From the human T2T-CHM13v2.0 reference genome, Homo sapiens: a stretch of DNA of 64,000 nucleotides. The DNA lies in contig CP086569.2 in assembly GCA_009914755.4 (NCBI GenBank), positions 10,368,001-10,432,000 of the forward strand, read 5' to 3'. Within the stretch, counting starts at the first letter, position 1. Each line of letters starts with the position of its first letter. The notes beneath the pieces were generated by a model. The model saw only the letters and a program-made list of their open reading frames with translations, did not search any database and had not been told where the DNA came from. Shown one piece after another: positions 2,736-59,570 of this stretch. A program made the translations under genes and the position numbers.

Positions 2736-3011
2736 TTAGGCCAGAGTTCCAGGGGCTCTGGGAGTGACTGCCGGGTGAGCTGGACAGTCTGATTTCCAGT
2801 GGGGTCCTGCACAATTGGGAGACAGCTTAGGAGGAATCCTGGGCTGTGGGCATTCCTTGGCCCAGTGGCCAGATTCCCAACACTTGAAGTAAGATCCTGG
2901 GGGAGGGAGTCCTGGAGGAATGCCTGGCCCCTGCGGTTTAGGTGTATTGGAGTTCTTGTGTGCTGGAGATGTGGCTGGGGTTTCTCTCACAGAGGAGGCA
3001 AGTAATTGCAA
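2736..3011 (-). pseudogene. Retroviral gag nucleocapsid fragment with two CCHC zinc knuckles (CWESGHWAKEC and CPNCAGPHWKSDC)
   Basis: The translated six-frame ORF shows two canonical C-X2-C-X4-H-X4-C motifs separated by a basic/Pro-rich linker. It is flanked by stop codons, so it is a relic and not an intact gag. Confidence 0.6.
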
Positions 3012-4228
3012 CTATTCTCTATTATTGTACACCTTGAAAGTGAGGTCAATTAAGCCCTGTTGTGGGGTTGAGGGCCAGAATCTAAATTTTAGAGCTTCTC
3101 TAATGTCAGGAGCCAATTGGGTAATAAAATGCATATTGAGAATAAGATGTCCTTCTGGCCCCTCTGGGTTTAGGACAGTAAAGCAGCTAAGGGTTGTTGC
3201 CAAACAGGCCATGAACTGGGCTGGGTTTTTATATTTGATGAAAAAGATCTTAAATGCTAACTGATTTGGGAGAGGTTCGATAAAGAAAAAAGGAGCATTA
3301 ACCTTGACTATGCCTTTAGCTCCAGCCACCTCTTTAAGAGGAAATTATTGGCCAGATATTGGAGGGCTAGTTGTGGAACAAAAGTGTAAGCTGGACCAGG
3401 TGTGAGGAGGGGAGGAAATAGAAGGGTTATAAGGTGGGGGAGTGGAGGCTGAGGAAGAGTTGGAACCTGACTTAGCCTGGGGAGTTGGGGAGAGGTCAGA
3501 TGAGTCCATAGAAAAGGAGGATTCAAAGGATTCAGAGCTTGGGATGGACACTGAAGGAACAGACAGGAGAGAAAGAAGAAAGATTTGGGATTAGTCACAT
3601 TAGGAGCAGAGACTAGGGAGGGACCAATGTGTAAAAGAATTCTTGGACATCAGGCACATCAGACCATTTGCCCATTTTTTGACAAAAATTATCTAGATCT
3701 TATAGGATAGACAAATTGAAAGTGCCATTCTCTGGCCACTTGGAACTACTGTCGAGTTTGTATTGGTGCCACACGGTATTGCAGAAGAAAATAAGGCACT
3801 TAAGTTTTAGGTCAGGTGTGAGTTGAAGAAGTTTTAAGTTATTGAGAACACAGGCTAAGGGAGAAGAAGGGGGAATGGAGGGTAGAAGATTGCCCATAGC
3901 GAAGGAGGTAAGTTTAAAGATAAAGGAAGAAACATGGAGAAGGGGGTGAGCAGCCCTGGGCTGCAATGTGGGTGAGCAGCCAAAGCAGGTGTCCCTGCAA
4001 TTGACTTGCCACCAAGGGAATGTGAGTGAATGACCAAGGCAGGCATCCCTGTGGTCATCAGACACCAATGAAATGTGGGTGAATAATCAGACAGGCATCC
4101 CCGCAGTGATTAAACACCAAGGGAACACTTTCTTCCTGAGTCCGTGACTGGCACCACAGTTTTGGGTTCACAGGTAAAATGTGTCTCCTTGTCTCTACTA
4201 GAGAGGAAAAAGAATTAGAATTGGAAGT

Positions 4229-4312
4229 ATAGAGAGATTGAAGAGTAGTGAGCAAGGGAGATTGAAGAGTAGTGAGAGAGGAAGATTGAAGGGTAGCAAG
4301 AGAGACTGGAGA
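4229..4312. repeat. Approximately 24-bp tandem repeat, about 3 copies (gagattgaagagtagtgagnnagg), in the ERV leader/gag region
   Basis: Direct repetition is visible in the sequence and produces the repeated LTTLQS peptide in the minus-frame ORF. Confidence 0.5.
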
Positions 4313-4454
4313 AGAGTGAAAAGACCACTTATCCAATTTAAAATTGATGAGATATTTCTTGGGCTGGTTGGTCTGAGGACCCGAGGTCGTAGGTGGATCT
4401 TCTTAGGGAGTGAGGGCAAGGACAGGTAACTGGTCTCCTGAAGGAGTCCTCCTG

Positions 4455-4472
4455 TCCTGCGTTTCAGCACCA
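4455..4472 (-). other. Primer-binding-site-like sequence (minus sense tggtgctgaaacgcagga), most similar to a tRNA-Phe PBS
   Basis: In minus sense it lies 2 nt downstream of the LTR terminus (...catgaca tg TGGTGC...). It matches TGGTGCCGAAACCCGGGA at 15 of 18 positions by eye. HERV-H uses a tRNA-His PBS, so this points towards a HERV-F-like element. Confidence 0.4.
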
Positions 4473-4474
4473 CA

Positions 4475-4955
4475 TGTCATGCATGTCCGTGTGAAGAGAG
4501 TCCACCAACAGGCTTTGTGTGAGCAACAAGGCTGTTTATTTCACCTGGGTGCAGGCTGAGTCTGAAAAAGGAGTCAGCTGAGGGTTGTGGGATTATCATT
4601 AGTTCTTATAGGTTTGGGATAGGTGTACAAAGTACCTTCTTAAGGGCGGGGGAGAATATTACAAAGTACCTCCTCAAGGGAGAGGGAGAATATATCATAT
4701 CAGTTAGGGTGGGGCAGCAACAAATCACAATGGTGGAATGTCATCAGTTAAGGCTATTTTCACTTCTTTTGTGGATCTTCAGTTGCTTCAGGCCATCTGG
4801 ATGTATACTTGCAGGTCACAGGTGATATGATGACTTAGCTTGGGCTCAGAGATCTGACACTTATGAGGTAGTAAACATAACAAGAACGTAGAGAAAAAGG
4901 CAAAAAGTCTTTCCTTTTAGAATTTTAAAAATCCCTTCCGGAACCCTTTTCCCAA
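4475..4955 (-). mobile_element. ERV1-type 5' LTR (U3-R-U5) of the provirus fragment
   Basis: In minus sense it ends ...aataaacagccttgttgctcacacaaagcctgttggtggactctcttcacacggacatgcatgaca. This gives an AATAAA signal followed by U5, then the PBS. The upstream boundary near 4955 is approximate. Confidence 0.5.
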
Positions 4956-5119: not shown

Positions 5120-5435
5120 ATATTCTTTATTTTTTATTTTTATTTTATTTTTTTTGAGACAGAGTCTGGATCAGTTGGACAGGCTGGAGCACAGTGGCCT
5201 GATCTTGGCTCACGACAAGCTCCACCTCCTGGGTTCATGCCATTCTCCTGCTTCAGCCTGCTGAGTAGCAGGGACTACAGGCACCCATCACCATGGCCAG
5301 CTAATTTTTCTGTATTTTCAGTTGAGATGTGTTTCACCATGTTAGCCACGGTGGTCTCAATCTGACCTCATGACCCACCCGCCTCAGCCTCCCAAAGTGC
5401 TGGGATTACAGGCATGAACAACCGTGCCTGGCTGC
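5120..5435 (-). mobile_element. Alu SINE, full length, minus orientation, with a T-run at 5120-5155
   Basis: The reverse complement of the Alu consensus is readable (gagacagagtctgg...ggctcacgacaagctccacctcctgggttcatgccattctcctgc...cctcccaaagtgctgggattacaggcatgaaccaccgtgcctggc). Confidence 0.9.
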
Positions 5436-24900: not shown

Positions 24901-27900
24901 GAAAATATCTTCACACACACAAAAAAAGACAGAAGAATTCTGAGGAACTTTTTTGTGATGTGTGCATTCATCTCAAACAGCTGAACCTTTCTTTTGGTTG
25001 AGCAGTTTGGAAACAGTCTTTTTGTAGAATCTGCAAGTGGACATTTGGAGCGCTATGTGGCCTATGGTAGAACAGGAAATATCTTCACATAAAATCTAGA
25101 CAGAAGCAATCTGAGAAACTTCTGTGGGATGTGTGAATTCATCTCCCAGAGTTAACCCTTTCTTTGGATTGGGCACTTTCGACACTCTCTTTATGCAGAA
25201 TTTGCAAGTGGACTTTTGGAAGGCTTTGACCCCTATGGTGAAAAAGGAAATAACTTCACGTGAAATCTAAACCAAAGCAATATGAAAAATTTCTTTTTGA
25301 TGTGTGCATTCATCTCACAGAGTTAAACCTTTCCTTTGATTGTGCAGTTTTGAAAGGCTCTTTTTGTAGAATCTGCAAGTGGATATTTGAAGCACTTTGA
25401 GGCCTATGGTGGAAGAGGAAATATCTTCAGATTAAAACTTGACAAGAATTCTGCAAAACTTACTTGTGATGTGTGCGTGCATCTCAAATAGTTGAACCTT
25501 TCTTTTGATTGAGCATTAGGAAACACTTTTTTTGTAGAATCTGCAAATTGGGATTTGGAGCGCTCTGCAGCCTGTGGTAAAAAAGGAGATATCTTCACAT
25601 AAAATACAGACAGAAGCAATCAGAGAAACTTCTTTGTGATGTGTGCATTCATCTCACAGAGTTGAAAATTTCTTTTGATGGACTAGTTTTGAAATACTCT
25701 TTTTGTTGAATCTGCAAGTGGACATTTGGAGCTCTTTGAGGCCTATGGTGGAAAAGGAAATCCTTGACATAAAAACTAGACAGAAGTATTCTGAGAAACC
25801 ACTTTGTGATGTGTGCATTCATCTCACAGAGTTGAGCATTTCTTTTGATTGAGGAGTTTGGAAACACTCTTTTTGTAGAATCTGCAGGTGGACATTTGAA
25901 GCTTTTTGTGGCCTATCATAGAAAAGGAAATATTTTAACATAAAATCTAGATAGAGGAAATCTGAGAAACTTCGTTGTGATGTGTGCATTCATCTCCCAG
26001 AATTGAAACTTTCTTTTGATTGAGGAGTTTGGAAACAATCTTTTTGTAGAACGTGCAAGTGGACATTTGGAGTGCTTTGTGGCCTATGGTAGAAAAGGGA
26101 ATACCTTTATATAAGAACTAGACAGAAACATTCTGAGAAACTTATCTGGATGTGTGCATACATCTCCCAGAGTTGAACCTTTCTTGTGATTGTGCAGTTT
26201 GGAAACACTCTTTTTGTAAAATCTGCAAGTGGACATTTTGAGCGCTTTGCGGCCTATGGTAAAAAAGGAAATATCTTCACATGAAATCTAGACAGAAGAT
26301 ATCTGAGAAACTTCTTGGTGATGTGTACATTCATCTCACAGAGTTATACTTTTCTTTTCATTGAGTAGTTTTTTAAACTCTCTTTTTGTAGAATCTGCAT
26401 GTGGACATTTGGAGCGCTTTGAGCCCTGTGTTGGAAAAGGAAATATCTTCACATAAAAACTAGACTAAAGATATCTGAGAAACTTCTTTGTGATGTGTGC
26501 ATTCATCTCCCAGAGTTCAACCTTTCTTTTGATGGACCAGTATTGAAATATTTTTTTTTTTTTTAGAATCTGCAAGTGGACATTTCGAGCACCTTGAGGA
26601 CTATGGTAGAAAATGATATATCTTCACATAAAAATTAGACAGAAGAATTATGAGAAACTTCTTCATGATGTGTGCATTCATCTCACAGAGTTGAACCTTC
26701 CTTTGACTGAGCAGTTTGGAAACCCTCTTTTTGTAGAATCTGCAAGTGAATATTTTGAGTGCTTTGAGGCTGATGGTAGAAAAGGAAACACCTTCACATA
26801 GAATCTCCACAGAAGCAATCTGAGAAACTACTTTGTGATGTGTGCATTCATCCCACAGCTTTAAATGTTTCTTTTGCTTGAGCATTTTTGAAACTCTCTT
26901 TTCATAGAATCTGCAAGTGGACATTTGGAGAGCTTTGTGCCCTGCAGTAGAAAAGGAAATATCTTCACATAAAATCTTAACAAAAGCAATCTGAGAAACT
27001 TCTTTGAGATGTATGCATTCATCTCACAGAGATAAACCTTTCTTTTGATTGGACAGTTTTGAAATTCTCTTTTTGTAGATTCTGCAATTGGACGTTTGGA
27101 GCGTTTTGAGGCCTATGGTGGTAAAGGAAATATCTTCACATATAAACTAGACAGAACAATTCTGGGAAATTCCTTTGTGATGTTTGCATTCATCTCATGG
27201 AGTTGAACCTTTCTTTTGATTGAGCAGTTTGGAAACACTCTTTTTGTAGGATCTGGCAATTGGTCATTTCGAGTCCTTTGCAGCCAATGGTAGAAAAGGA
27301 AGTATCTTCACACAAAATCTAGACAGAAACAATCTGAGAAACTTGTTTCTGATGTGTGCATTCATCTCACAGAGTCAAACCTTTCTTTTGATTGAGAAGT
27401 TCTGAAACTTTCTTTTTGTAGAATCTGCAAGTGGGCATTTGGAGCGCTTTGAGGCCTATGGTGGAAAAGGTAATATCCTCACATAAAAATTACACAGAAG
27501 AATTCTGACAAACTTCTTTGTGATGTGTGTGTTCATCTCACAGAGTTGAGCCTTTCTTTTGATTGAACAGTTTGGAAACACTGTTTATGTAGAATCTGCA
27601 AGTGGACATTTGGAGCACTTTGAGGCCTGTGGTAGAAAAGGAAATACCTTCACATAAAATCTAGACAGAAGCAATCTGAGAAACTTCTTTCTGATGTGTG
27701 CATTCATCCTACAGAGTTAAATGGTTCTTTTGATTGAGCATTTTTGAAACTATCTTTTCGTAGAATCTGCAAGTGGAAATTTGGAGCGCTTTGAGGCTTA
27801 TGGTGGAAAAGGAAATATCTTCACATAAAAACTAGACAGAAGAATTCTGAGAAACTACTTTGTAATGTGAGCGTTCATCTCACAGAGTTGAATCTTTCTT

Positions 27901-30900
27901 TTGATTGAGCAGTTTGGAAACATCGTTTTTGTAGAATCTGCAAGTGGACATTTGGAGCTCTTTGCAGCCTATGGTAGAAAAGGAAATATCTTCACATAAT
28001 ATCTAGAAAGAAGCAATCTGAGAAACTTCTTTTTGATGTGTGCATTCATCTCACAGAGTTAAACATTTGTTTTGATTGAGCAGTTTTGAAACTCTCTTTC
28101 TGTAAAATCTGCAAGTAGACATTTGAAGCGCTTTGAGGTCTATGTTGGAAAAGGAAATATCTTCTTAGAAAATGTAGACCGAAGAATTCTGAGAAACTCC
28201 TTTGTGATGTGTGCATTCATCTCACAAAGTTGAATTTTTCTTTTGATTGAGCAGTTTGGAAACATTCTTTTTGTAGAATCTGCAAGTGGAAGTTTGGAGA
28301 GCTTTGCGGCTTATGGTACAGAAGGAAATATCTTCACATGCTATCTATACAGAAGCAATCTGAGAAGCTTCTTTGTGATGTATTTATCTCACAGAGATAA
28401 ATCTTTCTTTTGACAGAGCAGTTTAGAAACTATCTGTAGAATCTGCAAGTGGACATTTAGAGCGCTTTGTGGCCTATGGTAGAAAAGGTAACATCTTCAC
28501 ATAAAATCTAGACAATAGCAATCTGGGAAACTTCTTTGTGAAGGGTGCATTCATCTCACAGAGTTAACCTTTTCTTTTGATTGAACAGTTTGGAAACTCT
28601 CTTGTTGTAGTATCTGCAAGTGGACATTTGGAGCACTTTGATGCCTGTGGTGGAAAAGGAAATATCTTCACATAAAAATAGATAGAAGCATTTTGAGAAA
28701 CTTCTCTGTGAGGTGTGCGTTCATCTCCCAGAGTTGAACCTTTCTTTTGATGGACTAGTATTGACATACTCTTTTTGTAGAATCTGCAAGTGGACTTTTC
28801 TAGCGCCGTGTGGCCTATGGTGGAAAATGATATATCTTCAAATAAAATCTAGACAGAAGAAATCTGAGAAACTTCTTTGTAATGAGTGCATTCGTCTCAC
28901 TGAGTTAAACATTTCTTTTGATTGAGCAGTTTTGAAACTCTCTTTTTGTAGTATCTGCAAGTGGACATTTGGAATGCTTTGAGGCCTGTGGCGGAAAAGG
29001 ACACATCTTCACATAAAACCTAGACAGAAGAATTCAGAGTAACTTCTCTGTGATGTGTGGGCACATCTCACAGAGTTGAAAATTTCTTTTGATTGAGCAG
29101 TTTGGAAACACTCTTTTTGTAGAATCTGCAAGTGGAGATTTGGAGCGCTTTGTGGTCTATGGTAGAAAAGGAACTATATTCACATAAAATCTAGACAGAA
29201 GCAATCTGAGAAACTTCTTCATGATGTATACATTCATGTCACAGAGTTAAACTTTTCTTTTGATTGAGCACTTTGAAACACTCTTTTTGTAGAAGCTGCA
29301 AGTGGACATTTGGAGCACTTTCAGGCCTATGGTAGAAAAGGAAATATCTTCACATAAAAACTACACAGAAGAATTATGAGAAACTTCTCTGTGATGCGTG
29401 AGTTGATCTCACAGAGTTGAACATTTCTTTTGATTGAGCAGTTTGGAAACACTCTTTTTGTAGAATCTGCAAGTGGACATTTGGAGAGCTTTGCAGCCTA
29501 TGGCAGAAAAGGAAATGTCTTCACATAATATCTAGACATAAGCAATCTGAGAAACTTCTTTGTGATGTGTGCATTCATCTCACAGAGTTAAAACTTTCTT
29601 TTGATTGAGCAGTTTTGAAACTCTCTTTTTGTAGAATCTGAAAGTGGACATTAGTATCGCTTTGAGGCCTATGGTGGAAAAGGAAATATCTTCACATAAA
29701 AACTAGTCAGAAGAATTCTTTGTGATGTGTGTGTTCACCTCACAGAGTTGAACCTTTCTTTTGATTGAGAAATTTGGAAACACTCTTTTTGTAGAATCTG
29801 CAAGAGGATATTTGGAGCCATTTGCGGCCTAAGTTCGAAAAGGAAATATCTTCACATAAAATCTAGACAGAAGCAATCTGATAAACTTCTTCATGACGTG
29901 TGCATTCATCTCACAGAGTTAAACATTTCTTTTGATTGAGCAGTTCTGAAAGTCTCTTTTTGTAGAATCTGCAAGTGGACCTTTGGAGCGCTTTGTGGCC
30001 GATGGTAGAAAAGGAAATATCTTCACATAAAATCTAGACAGAAGCAATCTGAGAAAATTCTTTGTGATGAGGGCTTTCATCTCACAGTTAAACCATTCTT
30101 TTGATTAACCAGTTTTGAAACTCTCTTTTGGTAGAATCTGCAAGTGGACATTTGGAGCGCTTTGAGGTCTATGGTGGAAAAAGAAATATGTTCACATATA
30201 AACCAGACAGAATAATTCTGATAAACTTCTTTGTGATGTGGGCTTTCATCTCACAGAGTTGAACCTTTCTTTTGATTGAGCAGTTTTGAAACACTCTTTT
30301 TGTAGGATCTGCATGTGGACATTTGTAGCGCTTTGTGGCCTATGTTAGAAAAGGAAATATCTTCTCATAAATTCTAGACAGCAGCAATCTGAGAAACTTC
30401 TTTGCGATGTGTGCATTCATCTCACAGAGTTCAACATTTGTTTTGATTGAGCAGTTTTGAAACTCTCTTTTTGTAGAATGTGCAATTGGAAATTTGGAGC
30501 GATTTAAAGCCTATGGTGGAAAAGAAAATATCTTCACATAAAAAGTACACAGAAGCATTCTGAGAAACTTCTTTGTGATGTGTACATTCATCTCACAGTG
30601 TTGAACCTTTCTTTTGATTGAGCAGCTTTGAAACACTCTTTTTGTAGTATCTGCTAGTGGATACATGGAGCGATTTGAGGTCTATTGTGGAAAAGGAAAT
30701 ATCTTCACATAAAAACTACAAAGAAGCATTCTTTCAAACTTATTTGTTATGAGTGAATTCATCACACAGAGTGGAAGCTTTATTTTGATTGATCAGTTCT
30801 GAAACACTCTTTTTGTCGAATCTGGAAGTGGATATTTGGAGGGCTTTGAGGCTTATTTTGGAAAGGAACTATCTTCACATAAAAACTACACAGAAGCATT

Positions 30901-31620
30901 ATGAGATACTTCTTTGTTATGTGTCTATTCAACTCACAGAGTGGAAACTATCTTTTGATGGGGCACTTTTAAATCTCTCTTTTTGCAGAATCTGCAAGCG
31001 GATATTTGGAGCGTTTTGAGGCTTACCGTGGAAAAGCAAAAATCTTCACCTAAAAACTACACAGAAACATTCTGAGAAACTTCTTTGTCACGTGTGTATT
31101 CAACTCACAAGGTCGAACCTATCTTTTGATTGACCAGTTTTGAATCTCTCTTCTTGCAGAATCTGCAAGTGGATATTTGCAGAGTTTTTAGGCCTATTGT
31201 GGAAAAGGAAATGTCTCCACATAAAAACTACACAGAGAAATTCTGAGAAACTTCTTTGTGATGTGTGCATTCAACTCAGAGAGCTGGACCGATCTTTTGA
31301 TTGAGCAGTTTTGAAACACTCTTTTTGTAGAATCTGCAAGTGGACACTTGGAGCGCTTTGAGGCCTATGGTGGAAAAGGTAGTATTTTCCAATATAAACT
31401 ATACAGAATAATTCTGAGAAACTTCTTTGTGACATGTGTGTTCATCTCCCAGAGTTGAACCTTTCTTTTCACTGAGCAGCTTGGACACACTCTTTTTGTA
31501 GAATCTGCAAGTGGACATTTGGAGCACTTTGCAGCCTAAGGCAGAAAAGGAAATATCTTCATATAGAATCTAGACAGAAGCAATCTGAGAAACTTCTTTG
31601 TGATGTGTGCATTCATCTCG
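21937..31620 (+). repeat. Alpha satellite array, plus orientation. Monomers are 171 bp and diverged, with an alternating A/B dimeric organisation.
   Basis: The classic alpha-satellite monomer is repeated about 57 times (...cattcatctcacagagttgaacctttcttttgattgagcagtttggaaacactctttttgtagaatctgcaagtggacatttggagcgctttgaggcctatggtggaaaaggaaatatcttcacataaaaactagacagaagaattctgagaaacttctttgtgatgtgtg...). Type A (ctatggtGgaaaagg...aaaAactagacagaagAattctg) alternates with type B (ctatggtAgaaaagg...aaaTctagacagaagCaatctg). The pJalpha-type motif (ctatggtggaaaaggaa) recurs. No CENP-B box (ttcgttggaaacggga) was seen on reading. Confidence 0.95.
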
Positions 31621-34600
31621 AAACAGCTCATTGAAAAGAAAGGTTCAACTCTGTGTGATAGATGCACCCATCACAAAGAAATTTCTCTGAATGTTTCTGT
31701 GTAGTTTTTATGTGAAGACATTTGCTTTTCCACAATAGGCCTCAAAACACACCAAATATCCACTTGCAGATTCTACAAAAAGAGTGTTTGATAACTGCTG
31801 AATCATAACATAGGTTCAACCCTGTGAGATAAATGTACACATCACAAATAAGTTTCTCATAATGCTTCTCTGTAGTTTTTATTTGAATATATTTCCTTTT
31901 CCACCATAGGCCACAAAGGACCCCAAATATCCAATGGCAGTAACTACAAAAAGAGAGATTCAAAACTGCTCAATCAAAAGATAGGTTCAACTTTGTGAGT
32001 TGAATGCACACATCACAAAGAAGTTTCTAGGAATTTCTATATGTAGTTTTTATGTGGAGATATTTCCTTTTCCACAATAGGCCTAAAAGCTCTCCAAATA
32101 TCCACTTACAGATTCTTCAAAAAGAGAGATTCAAAACTGGTCAATCAAAAGATAGGTTCATCCTTGTGTAAGTTGACTGCACACGTGGCAAAGAAATTTC
32201 TCAGAATGCTTCTGTGTAGTTTTTATGTGAAGATATTTGCTTTTCCATGGTATGTCTCAAAGTGCTCCAAATATCCACTTGCAGATTCTGCAAAAATGGA
32301 GATTCAAAACTGCTCAATCAAAAGATAGTTTCCACTCTGTGGGTTGAATGCACACATAACAAAGAAGTTTCTCAAAATGCTTCTGTGTAGTTTTTATGGG
32401 AAGATATTTCCTTTTCCAAAATAAGCCCCAAAGCCCTCCAAATATCCACTTCCAGTTCTACAAAAAGAGTGTTTCTGAACTGCTCAATCGAAAGAAAGGT
32501 TGCACTCTGTGTGATGAATTCACTCACCGCAAAGAATTCTGTGAGAATGCTTCTGTGTAGTTTTTATATGAAGATATTTCCTTTTCCACAATAGGCCTCA
32601 AATTGCTCCAAATATCCACTAGCAGATTGTACAAAAAGAGTGTTTCAAAACTGCTCAATGAAAAGAAAGATTCAACACTGTGAAATAAATGCACACACCA
32701 CAAAGAAGTTTCTCAGAATGCTTCTGTGTAGTTTTTATGTGAAGATATTTGCTTTTCCACAGTAGGCCTCAAAGGGCTCCAAATATTCACGTGCAGATTC
32801 TACAAAAAGAGAGATTTCAAAACTGCTCAATCAACAGACAGGTTTGACTCTGTGAGTTGAATGCACACATCACAAAGAAGTTTCTCAGAATGCTTCCGTG
32901 TAGTATTTGTGTGAAGATATTTGATTTTCCACAGTAGACCTCAAAGCTCTCTAAACATCCCCTTGCAGATTCTGCAAAAAGAGAGATTCAAAACTGCTCA
33001 ATCAAAAGATAGGTTCAACACTGTGAGTTGAAGACACACATAACAAAGAAGTTTCTCAGAAGATTTCTGTGTAGTTTTTATTTGAAGATATCTTTTTTTC
33101 CAAAATTGACCTCCAAGCCCTCCAAATATCCACTTCCAGATTCTACAAAAATAATGTTTAAAAACTGCTCAATCAAAAGAAGAGTTCAATCCTGTGAGAG
33201 GAATGCGCACATCAAAAAGGAATTTCTCAGAATGCTTTTGTGTAGTTTTTATGTGAGGATATTTCCTTTTCCACAACAGGCCACAAAGGGCTCCAAATAT
33301 CCACTTGCAGATTCTACTGAAAGAGTGCTTCTAAACTGCTCAATCAAAAGAAAGTTTCAACTCTCTGAGATGAATGCACACATCACAAATAAGTTTCTTA
33401 GAATGCTTCTGTGTAGATTTTATGTGAAGATATTTCCTTTTTCACCATAGGCCACAAAAGACTCCAAATATGCAATTGTAGATTCTACAAAAAGAGAGTT
33501 TCAAAACTGCTCAACCAAAAGATAGATTCAACTCTGTGACTTGAATGCACACATCACAAAGAAGCTTCTCAGAATGCTTCTGTGTAGTTTTTATGTGAAG
33601 ATATTTGATTTTCCACAGTTGGCCTCAAAACCCTCCAAATATCCAGTAACAGATTCTGCAAAAACAGAGATTCGAAACTGCTCAATCAAAATATAGTTTC
33701 AACTCTGTGAGTTGAATGCACACATCACAAAGCAGTTTCTCAGAATGCTTCTGTGTAGTTTTTATGTGAAGCTATTTTATTTTCCACAGTAGGCCTCAAA
33801 GCACTCCTAATATCCACTTGCAGATTCTGCAAAAAGAGATTCAAAACAGCTCAATCAAAAGATAGTTTCAACTCTGTTAGTTGAATACACACCTCACAAA
33901 GAAGTTTCTCAAATTCTTCACTGTAGTTTTTATGTGAAGATATCTTTTTCTCCAATATAGTCCTCAAATCCCTCCAAATAGCCACTTCCAGATTCTACGA
34001 AAAGACTGTTTCAAAACTGCTCAATCCAAAGAAAGGTTCAACTCTGTGTGGTGAATGCACTCATCACAAAGAAGTTTCTCTGAACACTTCTGTGTAGTTT
34101 TTATTTGAAGATATTTACTTTTCCACCATAGGGTGAAAAGGGCTCCAAATACCCACTTGCAGATTCTACAAGAGAGATGCTAAACTGCTCATTGAAAAGA
34201 TAGGTTCAACTCTGTGAGTTGAATGCGCACATCACAAATCAGTTTCTCAGAATGCTTCTGTGTAGTTTTTATGTGAAGATATTTCCTTTTCCACTGTAGG
34301 CCTCAAATAGCTCCAAAGATACACTTGCAGATCATACAAAAACAGTGTTTCAATACGGCTTAATCAAAAGAAATGTTCAACTCTGTGAAATGAATGCATA
34401 CATCACAAAGAAGTTTCTCAGAATTTACTTTCAGAATTTTAGGTGAAGATATTTGCTTTTCCACGTTAGGACTCAAAGCGCTCCAAACATCCACTGGCAG
34501 ATTCTACAAAAAGAGTGTTTCAAAACTGCTCAATCATAAGATAGGTTCAACCCTGTGAGATGAATGCACACGTCAAAGGGAGTTTCTCAGAATGCTTCTC

Positions 34601-37600
34601 TCAATCAAAAGATAGGTTCAACTCAGTGAGTTGAATGCACACATCACAAAGAAGTTTCTCAGAATGCTTTCATGTAGTTTTTATGTGAAGATATTTGCTT
34701 TTCCACAATAGGCCTCAGATGTCTACAAATATCCACCCTCAGATCCTGCAAAAAGAGAGATTTAAAACTGCTTAATGAAAAGATGGGTTCGACTCTGTGA
34801 GTTGAATGCACACATCACAAAGAAGTTTCTCAGAATGCCTCTCTGTAGTTTTTATGTGAGGATATTTGATTTCCCAAGTAGGCCTCAAAGGGCTCCTAAT
34901 ACCCACTTGCAGATTCTGCAAAAAGAGAGATTCATAACGGCTCAATCAAAAGACAGGTTCAACTCTGAGTTGAATGCATACCTCTCAAAGAAGTTTCTAA
35001 GAATGCTTCTGTGTAGTTTTTATGTGAAGATATCTCCGTCTCCAAGATAGCAATCAAAGCCCTCCAAATATCCACTTCCAGATTCTATGAAAAGAATGTT
35101 TCAAAACTGCACAATCCAAAGAAAGTTTCAACTCTGTTTGAAGAATGCACTCATCCAAAGAAGTTTCTCTGAATGCTTCCGCATAGTTTTTATTTGAACA
35201 TATTTCCTTTTCTACCATAAGGCGTGAAGGGCTCCAAATATCCACATGCAGATTCTCCAAAAAGAGAGATTCTAAACTGCTCAATCTACAGATAGGTTCA
35301 ACTCTGTGAGTTGAATGCACACATCACAAAGAAGTTTCTGAGAATGCCTCTGTCTAGTTTTTATGTGAAGATATTTCCTTTTCCACCATAGGCTTCAAAT
35401 CGCTTCACATATCCACTTGCAGATTCTACAAAAAGAGTGTTTCAAAACTGCTCAATCAAAAGAAAGGTTCAACTCGGTGAGATGAATGCACACATCACAA
35501 AGACGTTCCACAGAATCCTACTGTCTAGTTTTTATATGAAGAAATTTGCTTTTACCCCAGAGGCTACAAAGCAATCAAAATATCCACTTGCAGATTGTAC
35601 AAAAAGAGTGTTTCAAAACTGCTCCATTAAAAGAAATGTTCAACTCTGTGAGCTGAATACACACATCACAAAGTAGTTTCTCAAAATGTTTCTGTCTAGT
35701 TTTTATATGAAGATATTACTTTTTCCACTGTGGGCCTCAAACCCCTCCAAATATCGATTTGCAGATACCACAAAAACACAGAGTCCAAATTGTGCAATCC
35801 AAAGAAAAAGGTACAACTCTGTGGGATAAATGGACACATCACAAAGCAGTTTCTTAGAATGCTTTTGTGTAGTTTTTATGTGAAGATATTTACTTTTCCC
35901 CATTAGGCCTCAAAGCGCTCCAAATATCCTCTTGGAGATTCTACTAAAAGAGTGTGTCAAAGCTGCTCAATCAAAAGTAATGTTGAATTCTGTAAGATGA
36001 ATGAGCACATCACAAAAAAGTTTCTCAGAATGCTTCTGTGTGGTTCTTATGCGAAGATACTTCCTTCTCCACCATTGGCCTCAAAGCACTCCACATATCC
36101 TCTTGCAGATTCTACAAAAAGAGTGTTTGAAAACTGGTGAATGAAAAGAAAGTTTCAATTCTGTGAAATGAATGCACTCATCCAAAGAAGTTTCTCAGAA
36201 TGCTTCTGTCTAGTTTTTATTTGAAGATACTTCCTTTTCCACCATCGGCCCCAAATCACTCCAAATATCCACTTACAGATTCTTCAAAAAGAGTTTTTCA
36301 AAACTGCTCAATCAAAAGAAAGGTTCATCTCTCTGAGATGAATGCACACATCACAAAGAAGTTTCTCAGAATGCTGCTGTATAGTTTTTATTTGAAGATG
36401 TTGCCTTTTCCACTAGTGGCCAAAAAGCTCTCCAAATATCCACTTGCAGATTCCACAAAAAGAGTGTTTCATAATTGCTCAATCAAAAGAAAGATTCAAC
36501 TCTCTGAGTTGAATGCACACATCGCAAAGAAGTTTCTGGGAATGCTTCTGTCCAATTTTAGAGTGAAGATATTTCATTTTCCACAATAGGCCTCAAAGCA
36601 CTCCAAATATCCACTTCCACATTCTACAAAAAGATTGTTTCAAAACTGCTCAATCAAAAGAAAGTTTCATCTCTGTGACATGAATGCATGCATCACAATG
36701 AAGTTTCTCATAATGCTTCCATGTAATTTTTATGGGCAGATATTTCCTTTTCAACCATAGGCCTCAAAGTTCTCCACATATCCAATTGCAGATTCTACAA
36801 AAAGAGTTTTTCAAAACTGCTCAATTAGAGGAAAGGTTCAAATCTGTGATATGAATGCACTGATCACAAAGAAGTTTGTCATAATGCTTCTGTGTAGTTT
36901 TATGTGAAGATATTTCCTTTTCCACAATAGGCCTCAGTGTGCTCCAAATATCCACTTGCTGATTATATAAAAAGAGTGTTTCAAAACTCCTCAATCAAAA
37001 GATAAGTTCAACTCTGTGACTTGAATGCACACATTACAAAGAAGTGTCTCACAATGCTTCTGTGTAGTTTTTATGTGAAGACATTTCCTTTTCCACAAGA
37101 AGCCTGAAAGCGCTCCAAATATCCACTTGAAGATCCTACAAAAAGAGTGTTTCAAAATGGTTCAATCAAAAGCAAGGTTCAACTCTGTGAGATGAATGCA
37201 CACATCACAAAGAAGCTGCTCAGAATGCTTTTGTATAGTTTTTATGTGAAGATATTTCGCTTTCCACCATAGGTCTCAACGGGCTCCAAATATCAACTTG
37301 CAGATTCTACAAAAAGAGTGTTTCCAAACTGCTCAATCAAATGACAGTTTCAACACTGTGAGATGAATGCACACATCACAGAGAAGTTTCTCAGAATGGT
37401 TCTGTGTAGTTTTTATGTGAAAATATTTCCTTTTCCACAATAGGTCTCAAAGCACTCCAAATATCCACTTGCAGATTCTACAAAAAGAGTGTTTCAAAAC
37501 TGCTCAATCAAAAGAAAGGTTTGACCCTGTGTGATGAATTTATTCATCACCAAGTAGTTTCTCAGAATGCTTCTGTGTAGTTTTTTTGTGAAGATATTTC

Positions 37601-38934
37601 CTTTTCCACAATAGGTCTCAAAGGGCTCCAAATATCCACTTGCAGATTGTACAAAAAGAGTGTTTCAAAAGGTCTCAATCAAAAGAAAGTTTCAAATCTC
37701 TGAGATAAATACACACATCACAAAGAAGTTTCTCAGAATGCTTCTGTGTAGTTTTATGTGAAGATATTTGCTTTTCCACAGTAGGCCTCTAAGCACTCCA
37801 TATAACCACTTGCAGAGTCTACCAAAAGGGTGTTTCAAAACTGCTCAGTCATAAGATAGGTTCAACCCTGTGAGATGAATGCACACATCACAAAGAAGTT
37901 TCTCAGAATGCTTCTGTGCAGTTTTTATGTGAAGATATTTCCTTTTCCACAATAGGCCTCAGTGTGCTCCAAATATCCACTTGCAGATTCTATAAAAAGA
38001 GTGTTTCCAAACTGCTCAATCAAATGAAAGTTTCAACACTGTGAGATGAATGCACACATCACAGAGAAGTTTCTCAGAATGGTTCTGTGTAGTTTTTATG
38101 TGAAAATATTTCCTTTTCCACAATAGGCCTCAAAGCGCTCCAAATATCCACTTGTAGATTCTACAAAAAGAGTGTTTCAAAACTGCTCAATCAACAGAAA
38201 GGTTCAACTCTGTGTGATCAATTTATTCATCACCAAGTAGTTTCTCAAAATCCTTCTGTGTAGTTTTTAAGTGAAGATATTCCCTTTTCCACAATAGGCC
38301 TCAAAGGGCTCCAAATACCCACTTGCAGATTGTACAAAATGAGTGTTTCAAAAAGCCTCAATCAAAAGAAAATTTCAAATCTGTGAGATAAATACACACA
38401 TCACAAAGAAGTTTCTCAGAATGCTTCTGTGTAGTTTTTATGTGAAAGTATTTCCTTTTCCACAACAGGCCTCAAAGTGCTCCAAATATCCACTTGAAGA
38501 TTATACAAAAAGAGTGTTTCAAAACTGCTCAATCAAAAGAAAGTTACCACTCTGTGTGATGAATTTATTCATCACAAAGAAGTTTCTCAGAATCCTTCTG
38601 TGTAGTTTTTATGTGAAGTCATTGCCTTTTCCTCCATAGGCCTCAAAGGGCTCCAAATACCCACTTCCATATTCTACAAAAAGAGAGTATCAAAACTGCT
38701 CAATCAAAAGATAGGTTCAACTCTGTGAGTTGAATGCACACATCACAAAGAAGTTTCTCAGAATGCTTCTATATAGTTTTTATGTGAAGATATTTCCTTT
38801 TCCACAATAGGCCTCAAAATGCTCCTAATATCCTCTTGCAGATTCTACAAAAACAGTGTTGCAAAACTGCTCAATCAAAAGAAAGTTTCAACTCTGTGAG
38901 ATGAATGCACACATCACAAAGAAGTTTCTCAGGA
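31621..38934 (-). repeat. Alpha satellite array, minus orientation. It is the inverted continuation of the same array.
   Basis: From 31621 the monomers read as a reverse complement (...gtccacttgcagattctacaaaaagagtgtttcaaaactgctcaatcaaaagaaaggttcaactctgtgagatgaatgcacacatcacaaagaagtttctcagaatgcttctgtgtagtttttatgtgaagatatttccttttccaccataggcctcaaag...). The array ends abruptly at 38934. Confidence 0.95.
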
Positions 38935-55530: not shown

Positions 55531-55865
<335 letters not shown>

Positions 55866-56690: not shown

Positions 56691-59570
56691 AATAAGAGGG
56701 CAGAATAGAGGCCTACATTCCCATCCACCACACAAAAACACCAAATTTTCACAACTCACTACATTCACGAATCAATGTCAAAGGGACCAAAAATTGGGTG
56801 AGCAATCCCAGTACCTGGTATTAACTTCAAATCACTGAAACAGACATTGGAGAAGACAAACAAATAAGAGACAGTCTAGAAGCACGGATGCTACCTCTTT
56901 TTCAACCACCAGTAGTGACTACATGGTGCCGAGATACTATGTTTGGGAGAGGGAGAGCATAGTTCGTGAGGCTTTGCAAAAAATTCAGTACTACCCCCTC
57001 ACAGTGAAAAGCAGAACCAGGCTGTACTCAGCTGACATTTGCCAATGGTGGGAGCACTTGTATTGGCCTTAGAAAGAGGAAAACCTCCCATCCTAGTGTT
57101 GGGAGCTTGAGTTTTTACAAGTCTTGCCATCATGAGTTGAAGTGCTATTGGACTCTAGGAGAACTTAAGGGGCAGTCTAGGCCACAAGGACTTCAATTAT
57201 TAGGCAAGTCATATTCCGAGCTGGGCTCAGAGCCAGTGGAATGTGGAGGGTGGGGAAAATGGGGTCTACTGAGACAGCAGCCAGAGCTAAGGGAGTGCTC
57301 ACAACACCAATCCTCCACTCCCACCTAGCAGCAGCCACACAACACAGAGAAACCAGTGAATTTGGGAGAGGGAGGGCACAGTGACTGGAGGACATTACAT
57401 TAAACTCAGTGCTGCCATGTCAGTAAAGACCTGGCAGAATTCATCACCTGCTGACTAAAGAACCCCTGTACCCAGAATAAAAAACAGTGACAACCAGGTA
57501 ATACACCATGGGCATTGGGCTCTGAGAAGCGCTAACTTCAGGTGTGACCCAGTACATTTCCAGCTGTGGTAGCTATGGTGAAAGACTTCTGTTTGAGAAA
57601 AGCAGGGGGGAAAGTAAAGGGACCTCTGCATTGCACATGATATGCCAGCTCAACCACAGTGGGGTAGAGCACCAAGCAGATTCTTAGAGTCCCTGAGTCC
57701 AGGCCTAGGGTCTTCTTGGTCAACATCTCTGCCCTTGCCCTGGGCCAAAGGTTGAGTCTCAGGCATTGCAGAATTTATCACAAGCTAATTAAAGAGTCCT
57801 TGTGCTTTAATTGAGAAAGTGATGATGATTTGGTGGAAATCCCCCATGAGCCAGTAGTGTTGGCAGTCATAAAAGAGGCTCTTCTGCCTGCAGACCGGGG
57901 AAGAAAGAGTAGAAAATACTTTGTCTTATTCCCAAAGTGCCAGGTTTGCTACAGTAAAATAGAAGAGAAGGTAAATTTTGAAGATTCTATGCTTTAATCT
58001 CTGGCTCCCAAGTAGCATCTGTGGACCCAATCATGGCTAGGTGAAATTGCCACCCTATAGGCAGAGACACAAACCTGGCTGGCTTTGCCACCTATTAATC
58101 ACAGAGTCCTAGGGCTTTGAATAAACTTATATGGTAGCCAAGTAGTGGTTGCAGTGGGCCTTGCATGAGACCAAGTTCTGTGCCTACTTCAGGTGTGAAC
58201 CAGCACAGTCTCAGTGGTGGTGGCCACAGGAGTGCTTATGTTACCCCAGCCCCAGCTTCACATGTCTCAGCACAGAAAGAGAGACTGATGATTTGAGAGA
58301 CAGTAAGGGAAGAGAACAAGAGTCTCTACTTGATAAATCAAGAGAATTTTTCTTGATGTTAATCCAAGGCTACCAAGGCAGTACCTCTATGTGTTTGCAT
58401 AAACTACCGTGCTATTGGGTTTGGGACCCAAGTTTCTTTGAATACCTGGAAAGTGTTCCCAAAGATAATGGGCACTAACAAACCCAGGCTGTGAAAACTA
58501 CAATAAAGACTGAACTCTTCAATGCCCAGATACAGATGAACATCTACAAGTATCAAGGCCATCCAGGAAAACATGACCTCACCAAACAAGCTAAATAAAG
58601 CATCAGGGACAAATCCTGGAAAAACAGAGATATGTGACTTTTCATACAGGAAATCCAAAATAGCTGGTTGAGGTAATTCAAAGAAATGTACAATATAACA
58701 CAGAGAAGGAATTCAAAATTCTATCAGATAAATTTAACAATGAGATTGAAATAAAAAGAATAAAGCAGAAATTCTGAAGTTAAAATGCTATTGTCATACT
58801 GAAGAATGGATCAGAATTACTTAAAAGAATTGAACAAGGAGAAGATAGATTTAGTGAACTTGAAGTCAGACTATTTAAAAATACAAAGTCAGAGGAGACA
58901 AAAAAGAATAAAAAATAAAGCACGTCTGTAGAATTTAAAAAATAGCCTCAAAATAGCAAATCTAAGAGTTATTGGCCTTAAAGAGGAGGTAGAAAAAGAG
59001 ATGAGTTGAACATTTATTTAAATAAATAATATTAAACAATTCCTCAACATTTGATATCAATATTCGAGTAACAGAAAGTTACAGAACATAAAGCAGATTT
59101 AACCTAAAGAAGCCACCTGAAGTCACGTAACTGAACTCCCAAAGATTAAGGATTAAGAAATGATTCTAAAAGCATCGAGAGAAGAGAAAGAAATAACATT
59201 CAGTGGAACTCCAATACATCTGACAGCAGACTTTTCAGGGGAAAATTTACAGGCTGGGAGACTGGCATGACGTATTAAAAAAGCTAAAGAAAAAAAGACT
59301 TTTACTTTAGAATAATGTATCTGACAAAAACGTCCTTTAATTTGACGGAAAAATAAGAACTTTTCCCGACAGAAAAAAAAAAAAAAACAGGGATTTCATT
59401 AACACCAGACCTGTCCTACAAGAAATGCTAAAGGGATATCTTAACCTAAAAGAAAAAAAGTGAGCAAGAAGAAATCATCTGAAGGTACAGAACTCACTAG
59501 CAATAGCACATGGAAAAACACTGAATATTATAACATGGTAATTATGGGGTGCAAAAATCTCAAATAGAAA
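56690..59570 (+). mobile_element. 5' portion (5'UTR, ORF1, inter-ORF) of an older L1, plus orientation. It is interrupted at about 59570 by a younger L1 in the opposite orientation.
   Basis: A long L1-type 5'UTR is followed by ORF1-like sequence (58700-59300, Lys/Glu-rich: ...aaagaataaagcagaaattctgaag...gaacaaggagaagatagatttagtgaacttgaagtcag...) and an inter-ORF region (aacaccagacctgtcctacaagaaatgctaaagg...). The assignment is by pattern only. Confidence 0.55.

What the first reader, a model, noticed from the sequence alone, without database searches (positions are those of the whole stretch)
30700..32500. Alpha-satellite strand switch at 31620/31621 is a palindrome (mirror inverted duplication), not a simple inversion
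The array reads in plus orientation up to 31620 (...gtgcattcatctc) and in reverse complement from 31621 (gaaacagctcattgaaaagaaaggttcaactctgtg...). The junction skips about 38 bp of a monomer. Monomers equidistant from the junction are mirror images of each other, much closer than generic monomer similarity. For example, left 31060-31270 (...caactcacaaggtcgaacctatcttttgattgaccagttttgaatctctcttcttgcagaatctgcaagtggatatttgcagagtttttaggcctattgtggaaaaggaaatgtctccacataaaaactacacagagaaattctgag...) matches the reverse complement of right 31990-32200 at roughly 90%. Left 30790-30960 likewise matches the reverse complement of right 32280-32450. Both pairs share the rare variants aaaaactacacagaa, gaacctatcttttgat and ttgaatctctc. 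A palindrome of at least 0.9 kb per arm, already about 10% diverged, is therefore centred near 31620. Strand-switch palindromes of this kind are consistent with inverted-duplication or break-induced mechanisms at centromere edges. The same pattern can also be an assembly artefact, so it deserves verification.
Basis: seen in the sequence. Interest (0 to 1): 0.7.

Follow-up and report, generated by a model that had tools for sequence, protein, structure and literature searches.

The report
Mirrored patch beside alpha-satellite strand switch
Two oppositely oriented blocks of old centromere-type repeat DNA meet head-to-head, and about 0.74 kb of one block was long ago copied backwards into the other at the mirror-image position; this is a real but small and fairly ordinary repair footprint, not a large palindrome.

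Summary
The strand switch at 31620/31621 is real. A 57-monomer alpha-satellite array on the + strand (21943-31620) meets a 42-monomer array on the - strand (31621-38936). A mirror-image relationship also exists, but it is much smaller than claimed and does not reach the junction. Only about 30541-31278 and 31996-32735 are elevated (667/737 = 90.5%, against a monomer background of about 81%). The innermost 0.34 kb on each side is at background (78.4%), and the rest of both arms and the flanks are not mirrored. The two arrays are distinguishable types. The mirrored left block (monomers L2-L6) is a right-type patch embedded between left-type monomers, with chimeric in-phase monomers at both edges. 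Its mirror axis is the in-phase axis closest to the junction (chance about 0.02). The best explanation is a pre-existing head-to-head junction between two distinct monomeric arrays, across which one strand folded back and copied about 4.5 monomers of the right arm into the left arm. This happened long ago (K2P 0.10, changes equally split between the copies). A palindrome-first history with a later overwritten centre is not excluded. An assembly artefact is unlikely. Strand switches in monomeric alpha satellite are common, so interest is modest.

The parts
21943..31620 (+). Left alpha-satellite array: 57 monomers (L56..L0), 'left-type', with an irregular a/b dimeric alternation
   Evidence: TRF period 171, 56.7 copies; monomer chopping; type classification; a/b string
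31621..38936 (-). Right alpha-satellite array: 42 monomers (R0..R41), 'right-type', in reverse orientation
   Evidence: TRF; monomer chopping; type classification
31620..31621 (.). Head-to-head strand-switch junction. The left monomer is truncated at consensus position 122 and the right monomer at position 156.
31621..31654 (.). 34-bp asymmetric segment present only in the right arm. It forms the loop of the minimal-loop fold-back, and the mirror axis (31637-31642) falls inside it.
   Evidence: coordinate sums
30541..31278 (+). Left copy (inferred recipient) of the mirrored patch: right-type sequence embedded in the left array. The outer limits of the boundaries are about 30516 and about 31320.
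   Evidence: 90.5% to the reverse complement of 31996-32735; 57-bp window profile; LLR painting; alignment
31996..32735 (-). Right copy (inferred donor) of the mirrored patch, lying in native right-type context (R2-R6)
31279..31620 (+). Non-mirrored centre, left side: tail of L2, L1 (b-type) and L0 (a-type). These are ordinary left-type monomers; L0 is 93% identical to L12, L21 and L50.
31655..31995 (-). Non-mirrored centre, right side: R0, R1 and the first bases of R2, all right-type. Identity to the opposite side is 78.4%.
30473..30643 (+). Chimeric monomer L6 (171 bp, in phase) at the outer patch boundary. Its head is left-type (G at column 43). From about column 79 it is right-type and shares CACAGTG with R6.
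31158..31326 (+). Monomer L2 (169 bp, in phase) at the inner patch boundary. It matches R2 up to about column 128 (about 31282), and its tail no longer matches.
29791..30472 (+). L10-L7: a possible weak extension of the mirror relationship to R7-R10 (32804-33488). Suggestive only.
   Evidence: 4-monomer run z-sum 6.89, rank 2 of 1504, but the control direction reaches 7.78

Best explanation
Two distinct monomeric alpha-satellite arrays already lay head-to-head at 31620/31621. Such strand switches are common in divergent alpha satellite. Because all monomers are about 80% alike, the junction is an imperfect (quasi-)palindrome. After a break or fork stall about 300 bp to the left of the junction, a 3' end in the left arm paired with the right arm in the fold-back register that has the smallest loop (34 nt). 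It then copied about 4.5 monomers (R2 to part of R6, about 0.74-0.8 kb) and returned in monomer phase to the left array. This left a reverse-complement patch of right-arm sequence in the left arm at exactly the mirror position. The patch is flanked by chimeric monomers and separated from its source by the unconverted stem (L1, L0 | R0, R1). The two copies have since diverged by about 10%.

Shown: the strand switch, the two array types, the patch with its boundaries and register, the direction of copying (right-type sequence sits in the left arm), and the symmetric old divergence.

Inferred: the order of events (junction first), the fold-back or template-switch mechanism, and whether the patch replaced five monomers or added them.
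For: The mirror block is limited to L2-L6/R2-R6, with the top four residuals of 2394 cells falling there. The pairs share 5-7 rare variants. Identity is 90.5% over 737 bp, against 78.4% in the centre. L2-L6 are right-type, while L0, L1 and L7 onward are left-type. All 50 left-core monomers classify as left-type. Both boundaries lie inside monomers and preserve monomer length and phase, which indicates homology-guided switches rather than end joining. The mirror axis is the in-phase axis nearest the junction; the chance of a random register giving this is 39/2106 = 0.019. The centre folds as a long imperfect hairpin in this register, at -91.8 kcal/mol with z = -15. Removing L2-L6 restores the a/b alternation (L7 = a, L1 = b, L0 = a). 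Differences between the copies are evenly split, 34 on the left and 37 on the right, and dominated by substitutions (37 transitions, 33 transversions, 3 gap events). For precedent, fold-back inverted duplications have non-duplicated spacers of 766 bp or more and hybrid repeats at homologous junctions (PMC3907307). Template switching between imperfect inverted-repeat arms homogenises them (PMC8604942). Strand switches are frequent in monomeric alpha satellite.
Against: No outgroup or ancestral state is available, so the order of events is inferred. Pairing had to start on a stem only about 78% identical. Classical quasi-palindrome template switches span bases to tens of bases, not 740 bp. The a/b parity argument for net insertion is weak (likelihood ratio about 2.6). 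A weak mirror signal in L7-L10 could instead point to an older and larger palindrome.
Confidence: 0.5

Rival explanations
1. Palindrome first. A fold-back inverted duplication of the right-type array created the strand switch and a true palindrome of at least 6.5 monomers per arm. The short arm was then joined in phase to the left-type array. Later the innermost left monomers (L0, L1 and the tail of L2) were overwritten by gene conversion from left-type monomers, with the tract ending at the junction where homology stops.
For: The same number of monomers (one full plus one partial) separates each patch copy from the junction, so the register is preserved. The 34-bp asymmetry resembles a fold-back loop. 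The weak extra mirror signal in L7-L10 (p about 0.001) and the mirror diagonal ranking first of 46 diagonals beyond the patch could be traces of a longer, older palindrome.
Against: It needs three events instead of one. L0 and L1 show no residual similarity to R0 and R1 (z = -1.5 and -0.2; 0 and 1 shared rare variants), not even in the last 30 bp next to the junction. Left-type sequence would have had to jump over the retained L2-L6 block. The L7-L10 signal is matched by extremes in the control direction.
Confidence: 0.25
2. Direct duplication followed by a simple inversion. A five-monomer right-type block was first copied in direct orientation within a unidirectional array, which is ordinary tandem-array exchange. 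A later inversion of 31621-38936 then happened to place the two copies at mirror positions.
For: Inversions are common in divergent alpha satellite. Un-inverting the right arm turns the two blocks into direct repeats in the same order (inference).
Against: It requires the two copies to lie by coincidence at the same distance (two monomers) from the two inversion breakpoints, with p about 0.01-0.02. It offers no reason for the minimal-loop register.
Confidence: 0.08
3. Assembly or sequencing artefact: a chimeric fold-back read or a false contig join at 31620/31621.
For: The junction could not be checked against reads. No independent copy of the junction was found in the searchable collections, but those collections are microbial and so uninformative.
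Against: Fold-back chimeras give near-identical arms starting at the junction. Here the arms next to the junction are 78% identical and of different array types. The mirrored block is 9.5% diverged, with balanced and substitution-dominated changes. A false join would not coincide with the symmetry axis of a genuine old inverted duplication (p about 0.02).
Confidence: 0.05
4. Chance or monomer-class effect: the elevated identity merely reflects matching monomer subtypes on the two sides.
For: The quoted motifs are right-type markers rather than unique variants. L4 also resembles R8 and R13.
Against: After row and column correction the four top cells of 2394 are consecutive on one diagonal. The pairs are reciprocal best hits. 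They share 5-7 variants that occur in 10% or fewer of the other monomers. Neighbouring diagonals at offsets of +-1, +-2 and +-4 are at background.
Confidence: 0.01

Closest known systems
Strand switches (inversion breakpoints) in divergent or monomeric alpha satellite of human pericentromeres (Altemose et al., bioRxiv 10.1101/2021.07.12.452052; 2026 preprint 10.64898/2026.07.22.740206)
   Same: A 171-bp monomeric array of about 82% inter-monomer identity flips orientation. It is flanked by an L1 fragment, Alus and 5S-composite units typical of centromere transition regions.
   Different: Those surveys catalogue breakpoints. In the passages read they do not describe an in-register inverted duplicated patch beside a switch.
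Fold-back inverted duplications with a non-duplicated spacer (Hermetz et al. 2014, PMC3907307)
   Same: Inverted arms are separated by a non-duplicated spacer of under 1 kb. The reported minimum spacers are 724-766 bp, and here it is about 717 bp. The transition occurs at homologous positions of inverted repeats and creates hybrid repeat units.
   Different: Those duplications span kb to Mb, extend into a dicentric or terminal-deletion chromosome, and have a spacer in one orientation. Here the copy is only about 0.74 kb and returns to the original array. The spacer itself contains the strand switch and two array types.
Quasi-palindrome correction, or template switching between imperfect inverted-repeat arms (Ripley 1982, as reviewed in PMC8604942; short-range template switching in apes, PMC7954356)
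   Same: One arm of an imperfect inverted repeat serves as template for the other. There are two switches, and the result is a reverse-complement tract in register that makes the arms more alike.
   Different: Known events are a few to tens of bases. This tract is about 740 bp, and the arms are satellite monomers only about 80% alike.
Arm-to-arm gene conversion in large palindromes and inverted segmental duplications (own knowledge: Y-chromosome palindromes P1-P8)
   Same: Intrachromatid exchange between inverted arms in register.
   Different: Those arms are kept above 99.9% identical by ongoing conversion. Here there was a single old tract, now 9.5% diverged, and no ongoing homogenisation of the arms.

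Membership tests
Monomeric (non-HOR) alpha satellite | Tandem head-to-tail monomers of about 171 bp | tested here: met
   TRF period 171, with 56.7 and 42.4 copies; monomer chopping
Monomeric (non-HOR) alpha satellite | No higher-order periodicity of near-identical (>95%) units; monomers about 70-85% alike | tested here: met
   Mean identity 82.5% (left-left) and 82.7% (right-right). No lag from 1 to 12 rises above 83.6%.
Monomeric (non-HOR) alpha satellite | Assignment to a named suprachromosomal family or layer | not testable with these tools
   No alpha-satellite monomer-class models (HumAS-HMMER type) are available. Only 'left-type' and 'right-type' were defined internally.
True DNA palindrome / fold-back inverted duplication | Two inverted arms with identity well above background | tested here: met
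   90.5% over 737 bp against about 81% background
True DNA palindrome / fold-back inverted duplication | Arms reach the centre, or are separated by a single-orientation spacer continuous with one arm | tested here: not met
   The 717-bp interval contains the strand switch and is half left-type (+) and half right-type (-), at 78.4% identity
True DNA palindrome / fold-back inverted duplication | Inverted homology or microhomology at the spacer/arm transition | tested here: met
   Both boundaries lie inside in-phase chimeric monomers
True DNA palindrome / fold-back inverted duplication | The duplication accounts for the orientation switch of the whole arms | tested here: not met
   The arms are different array types and are not mirrored outside L2-L6. 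The flanks are not mirrored.
Simple inversion | Two breakpoints with reciprocal strand switches | not testable with these tools
   There is only one switch in the window. The other array ends abut non-satellite DNA.
Simple inversion | No sequence duplicated across the breakpoint | tested here: not met
   An inverted duplicate of 0.74 kb is present
Template-switch homogenisation of an imperfect inverted repeat (quasi-palindrome correction) | A pre-existing imperfect inverted repeat able to pair | tested here: met
   The centre folds as an imperfect hairpin, -91.8 kcal/mol, z = -15. Off-register arms are about 80% complementary.
Template-switch homogenisation of an imperfect inverted repeat (quasi-palindrome correction) | [quoted passage not shown] | tested here: met
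   The mirror axis at 31637-31642 is the in-phase axis nearest the junction
Template-switch homogenisation of an imperfect inverted repeat (quasi-palindrome correction) | An ancestral (pre-switch) sequence is documented in an outgroup | not testable with these tools
   No primate assemblies are searchable. The microbial collections gave only chance 20-23-mer matches.
Template-switch homogenisation of an imperfect inverted repeat (quasi-palindrome correction) | Typical tract length of bases to tens of bases | tested here: not met
   The tract is about 740-800 bp
Fold-back chimera / assembly artefact | Near-identical arms beginning at the junction, with differences of the read-error type | tested here: not met
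   Identity next to the junction is 78%. The patch is 9.5% diverged, with 70 substitutions against 3 gap events, split 34/37 between the arms.

The most novel reading that the evidence does not exclude
Head-to-head junctions inside centromeric satellites may behave as giant quasi-palindromes that undergo long-tract (about 1 kb), in-register, arm-to-arm templated repair, possibly recurrently. The strong L2-L6 patch plus the weak L7-L10 signal would then represent two events. This would be a so far undescribed way for sequence to cross a strand switch between otherwise independently evolving satellite arrays. It would also provide a built-in clock for dating such junctions.
Probability: 0.15. 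Interest if true: 0.55.

Novelty: new member of a known kind. Interest (0 to 1): 0.3.

Why it matters
The patch shows that the strand switch is ancient and genuine. The junction must already have existed when the patch formed, about 0.10 substitutions per site ago. That is of the order of tens of millions of years at primate neutral rates of 1-2.2e-9 per site per year. The age is my inference: the rate in satellite DNA and the species are unknown. It also gives a concrete example of roughly 80%-identical inverted satellite monomers supporting a 0.74-kb homology-guided inverted copy. If in-register patches turn out to be common at satellite strand switches in T2T assemblies, they would be a simple marker for separating real junctions from misassemblies, for dating them, and for studying fold-back repair in heterochromatin. 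As a single case it is a modest refinement of known centromere-flank decay processes.

Tried and rejected
1. Whole-arm palindrome. The best reverse-strand BLAST alignment is centred at 31641 but is only 82.75% identical, against about 81% for other registers. The monomer matrix shows the elevation is confined to L2-L6.

2. Mirrored flanks. No inverted similarity was found between 1-21942 and 38937-64000, apart from a few dispersed-repeat hits.

3. Extension of the mirror beyond L6. The L7-L10 run has p about 0.001 by rank, but the control direction gives equal extremes. I kept it as suggestive only.

4. Independent copies of the junction. The 31-mer across the junction is absent from metagenome contigs and genome contigs. 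The 20-mer gave five bacterial contigs with only 20-23 bp chance matches.

5. Locus identification. Rfam found only two 5S pseudogenes. ORFs in the flanks are short or lie in GC-rich non-coding DNA and were not pursued with the expensive protein searches. The literature places monomeric 5S-composite units in centromere transition regions, but the chromosome and species remain unknown.

6. Spacer inversion between the patch arms was considered as the origin of the central segment. It was rejected because flipping the spacer would put left-type monomers in the right arm and simplify nothing (reasoning).

7. The staggered-break inversion model, with duplications at both inversion ends, was rejected because it does not place the two copies symmetrically around one breakpoint.

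8. The a/b parity of the left array was used to separate insertion from replacement. It gives only a weak preference for net insertion.


Full report
**What is in the window.** TRF finds one 171-bp tandem array split into 21943-31619 and 31621-38936. GC skew changes sign there. I cut both parts into monomers against the array consensus. This gave 57 monomers on the + strand (L56..L0, with L0 next to the junction) and 42 on the - strand (R0..R41). The left arm ends at consensus position 122, and the reverse-complemented right arm ends at position 156. The strand switch at 31620/31621 is therefore real. The array is monomeric alpha satellite: mean monomer identity is 82.5% within the left arm, 82.7% within the right arm and 81.0% between arms, with no higher-order periodicity.

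**The surroundings.** The flanks are primate non-satellite DNA. There are two Alus at 5149-5432 and 55576-55864. The start of an L1 5'UTR abuts the right end of the array at 38937. Degenerate 5S rDNA units lie at about 39.5-44.5 kb, with 5S pseudogenes at 41527-41645 and 43992-44110. Monomeric 5S-composite units are reported to be enriched in human centromere transition regions (10.1101/2021.07.12.451456). This fits a pericentromeric origin, but the chromosome and species could not be determined.

**Testing the mirror claim.** A reverse-strand BLAST of the window on itself gives a best alignment centred at 31641. Its identity is only 82.75%, against about 81% for every other register, so the arms as a whole are not a palindrome.

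The 57x42 left-by-right monomer identity matrix has mean 81.0% and sd 2.8. The mirror diagonal reads L0-R0 79, L1-R1 76, L2-R2 91, L3-R3 89, L4-R4 90, L5-R5 87, L6-R6 88 and L7-R7 81. After removing row and column effects, the four largest residuals of all 2394 cells are L2-R2, L3-R3, L4-R4 and L5-R5 (z 5.8-8.4). L0-R0 and L1-R1 are at z -1.5 and -0.2.

Variants present in 10% or fewer of the other monomers are shared 5, 7, 6 and 7 times by these four pairs. The matrix-wide mean is 0.44 and the 99th percentile is 3. L0-R0 shares 0, L1-R1 shares 1 and L6-R6 shares 1. The pairs are also reciprocal best hits among all 99 monomers.

A 57-bp window profile of the mirror alignment gives 0.75-0.82 for 31279-31620 vs 31654-31995. 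It gives 0.84-0.93 for 30541-31278 vs 31996-32735, and mostly 0.74-0.89 further out. The exact figures are 667/737 = 90.5% for the patch, 78.4% for the centre and 83.3% for the next 0.67 kb outward. The repeat finder agrees: off-register arms are about 80% complementary, and mirror-register pieces are 87-89%. The flanks are not mirrored.

The mirror block is real and highly non-random. It is about 0.74 kb per arm, does not reach the junction, and has its axis at 31637-31642.

**The two arms are different arrays, and the left block is a foreign patch.** For each monomer I compared its mean identity to the left core (L7-L56) and the right core (R7-R41). All 50 left-core monomers are closer to the left core (minimum +0.007). 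Right-core monomers are closer to the right core, with one at +0.001. L2-L6 score -0.022, -0.031, -0.030, -0.021 and -0.008, which is right-type. L0 (+0.041), L1 (+0.012) and L7 onward are left-type. R0 and R1 are right-type.

Position-wise likelihood painting gives the same picture and resolves the edges. L6 starts left-type and becomes right-type after about column 45-79 (window about 30516-30548). L2 matches R2 up to about column 128 (about 31282), and L1 is left-type from its first bases. Both edge monomers keep normal length (171 and 169 bp) and phase, so the joints are homology-guided.

The left array has an irregular a/b dimeric pattern that alternates about 90% of the time. L7 = a, L1 = b and L0 = a, so deleting L2-L6 restores alternation. 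This weakly favours a net insertion of about five monomers over an in-place replacement. L0 is 93% identical to L12, L21 and L50, so it is an ordinary left-type monomer.

AAAAACTACACAGAA occurs 18 times on the minus strand.

**Register.** The patch pairs 30541 with 32735 and 31278 with 31996, so its axis is 31637-31638. This is the in-phase axis closest to the strand switch. It is displaced 17 bp from the junction because the right arm carries 34 extra bases. If a four-monomer inverted copy were dropped at random, only 39 of 2106 placements (1.9%) would fall on this diagonal.

Folded as single-stranded DNA, 31470-31810 forms a long imperfect hairpin in exactly this register, with the 34-nt asymmetry in the loop (-91.8 kcal/mol; shuffles -36.4 +- 3.7; z = -15). 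The generic similarity of alpha monomers is therefore enough to make the junction a quasi-palindrome.

**Age and authenticity.** The patch copies differ by 70 substitutions (37 transitions, of which 7 are in CpG context, and 33 transversions) and only 3 gap events. K2P is 0.102. Polarised with the right-core consensus, 34 changes lie on the left copy and 37 on the right. This is balanced, substitution-type evolutionary divergence. It is not long-read error and not a fold-back chimera, which would give near-identical arms starting at the junction. A false contig join would not sit on the symmetry axis of a genuine old duplication. At 1-2.2e-9 substitutions per site per year the event would be roughly 25-50 million years old. 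This figure is my inference, because the rate in satellite DNA and the species are unknown.

**Mechanism.** The simplest history has three parts.

- Two distinct monomeric arrays were already head-to-head. Strand switches are frequent in divergent alpha satellite.
- A break or stalled fork occurred about 300 bp left of the junction. This let a 3' end pair with the opposite arm in the minimal-loop fold-back register and copy R2 to part of R6.
- The end then returned in phase to the left array.

This is a kilobase-scale version of template switching between imperfect inverted-repeat arms (Ripley's model, as reviewed in PMC8604942). Structurally it resembles fold-back inverted duplications, which have a non-duplicated spacer (sequenced junctions 766-70,466 bp, plus one 724-bp entry) and hybrid repeats at homologous junctions (PMC3907307). 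Here the extension was captured locally instead of producing a dicentric chromosome. I give this model a confidence of 0.5.

**Rivals.**

- Palindrome first, with the centre later overwritten by left-type conversion (0.25). This model preserves the register and could explain a weak mirror signal in L7-L10 (z-sum 6.89, rank 2 of 1504). However, it needs three events, there is no residual L0/L1-R0/R1 similarity, and the control direction produces equally extreme runs (max 7.78).
- A direct duplication followed by an inversion that happened to be symmetric (0.08). This needs a coincidence of about 1-2%.
- Assembly artefact (0.05) and chance or monomer-class effect (0.01). Both are argued against above.

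**Comparison with what is known.** The array passes the tests for monomeric alpha satellite. As a 'palindrome / fold-back inverted duplication' it meets two defining features (elevated inverted arms and homologous junctions). It fails two others: the arms neither reach the centre nor are separated by a single-orientation spacer, and the duplication does not account for the orientation of the arms. It works like inverted-repeat arm homogenisation by template switching, but the tract is 10-100 times longer than typical cases. I found no description of such an in-register patch next to an alpha-satellite strand switch in the passages read. Those were keyword searches of open-access text, not an exhaustive review.

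**Verdict.** This is a real, statistically solid, small and old inverted duplication symmetric about a genuine strand switch. It is not a palindrome that created the switch. I class it as a new member of a known kind (fold-back or template-switch repair footprints, and decay features of monomeric alpha satellite). Interest is 0.3. Its main value would come from a genome-wide test of whether such in-register patches are a general property of satellite strand switches.

Noticed in passing
window 39500-44600 (5S at 41527-41645 and 43992-44110, both on the - strand): GC-rich (59%) degenerate tandem units carrying two 5S rRNA pseudogenes (87% and 84% identical to human 5S), with 73-80% similarity between units over roughly 39560-44410. 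This looks like relic 5S rDNA or '5SRNA_Comp' monomers, which are reported as enriched in centromere transition regions.
   Followed up: partly
window 38937-39080: The right end of the alpha array abuts the very start of an L1 5'UTR-like sequence (ggatgatggctgaataggaacagctccagtgtacagctcccagc...). The similarity is lost after about 140 bp, where unrelated sequence begins.
   Followed up: no
window 34508-34599 (TRF period 242 at 34362-34844): A 92-bp stretch between monomers R16 and R17 does not align to the monomer consensus and shifts the phase of the right array. Many reverse-strand BLAST alignments break at about 34600.
   Followed up: partly
window 19800-21942: The left flank next to the array is 62% GC with a low CpG o/e of 0.28. 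It contains a (CCACCT)n run at 20010-20056 and an internal inverted repeat (19946-20193 vs 21272-21489, 76-86%). It has no similarity to the GC-rich right flank.
   Followed up: partly
window 1-4000: Strong G-over-C skew (+0.34 to +0.36) with a very low CpG o/e of 0.08. It is followed by several minisatellites with periods of 52, 24 and 34 bp at 4010-4693. Its nature was not identified.
   Followed up: no
window 21943-30472: The left array is an irregular a/b dimer array. Columns 46, 75, 87 and 89 of the monomer alignment are linked, and alternation holds about 90% of the time. The right array lacks the 'a' state, and TRF reports only a weak 342-bp period there.
   Followed up: partly
window 29791-30472 vs 32804-33488: Monomers L7-L10 are slightly more similar to their mirror partners R7-R10 than expected (rank 2 of 1504 four-monomer runs). 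This may be a trace of an older or longer in-register exchange, or it may be noise.
   Followed up: yes
window 47092-48589 vs 59665-61171 (direct, 75%); 44856-45754 vs 58518-59314 (inverted, 73-75%); 45175-45330: Dispersed repeat copies lie in the T-rich right flank (AT skew about -0.28), probably old interspersed elements. There is also a 78-bp tandem duplication (92% identical).
   Followed up: no
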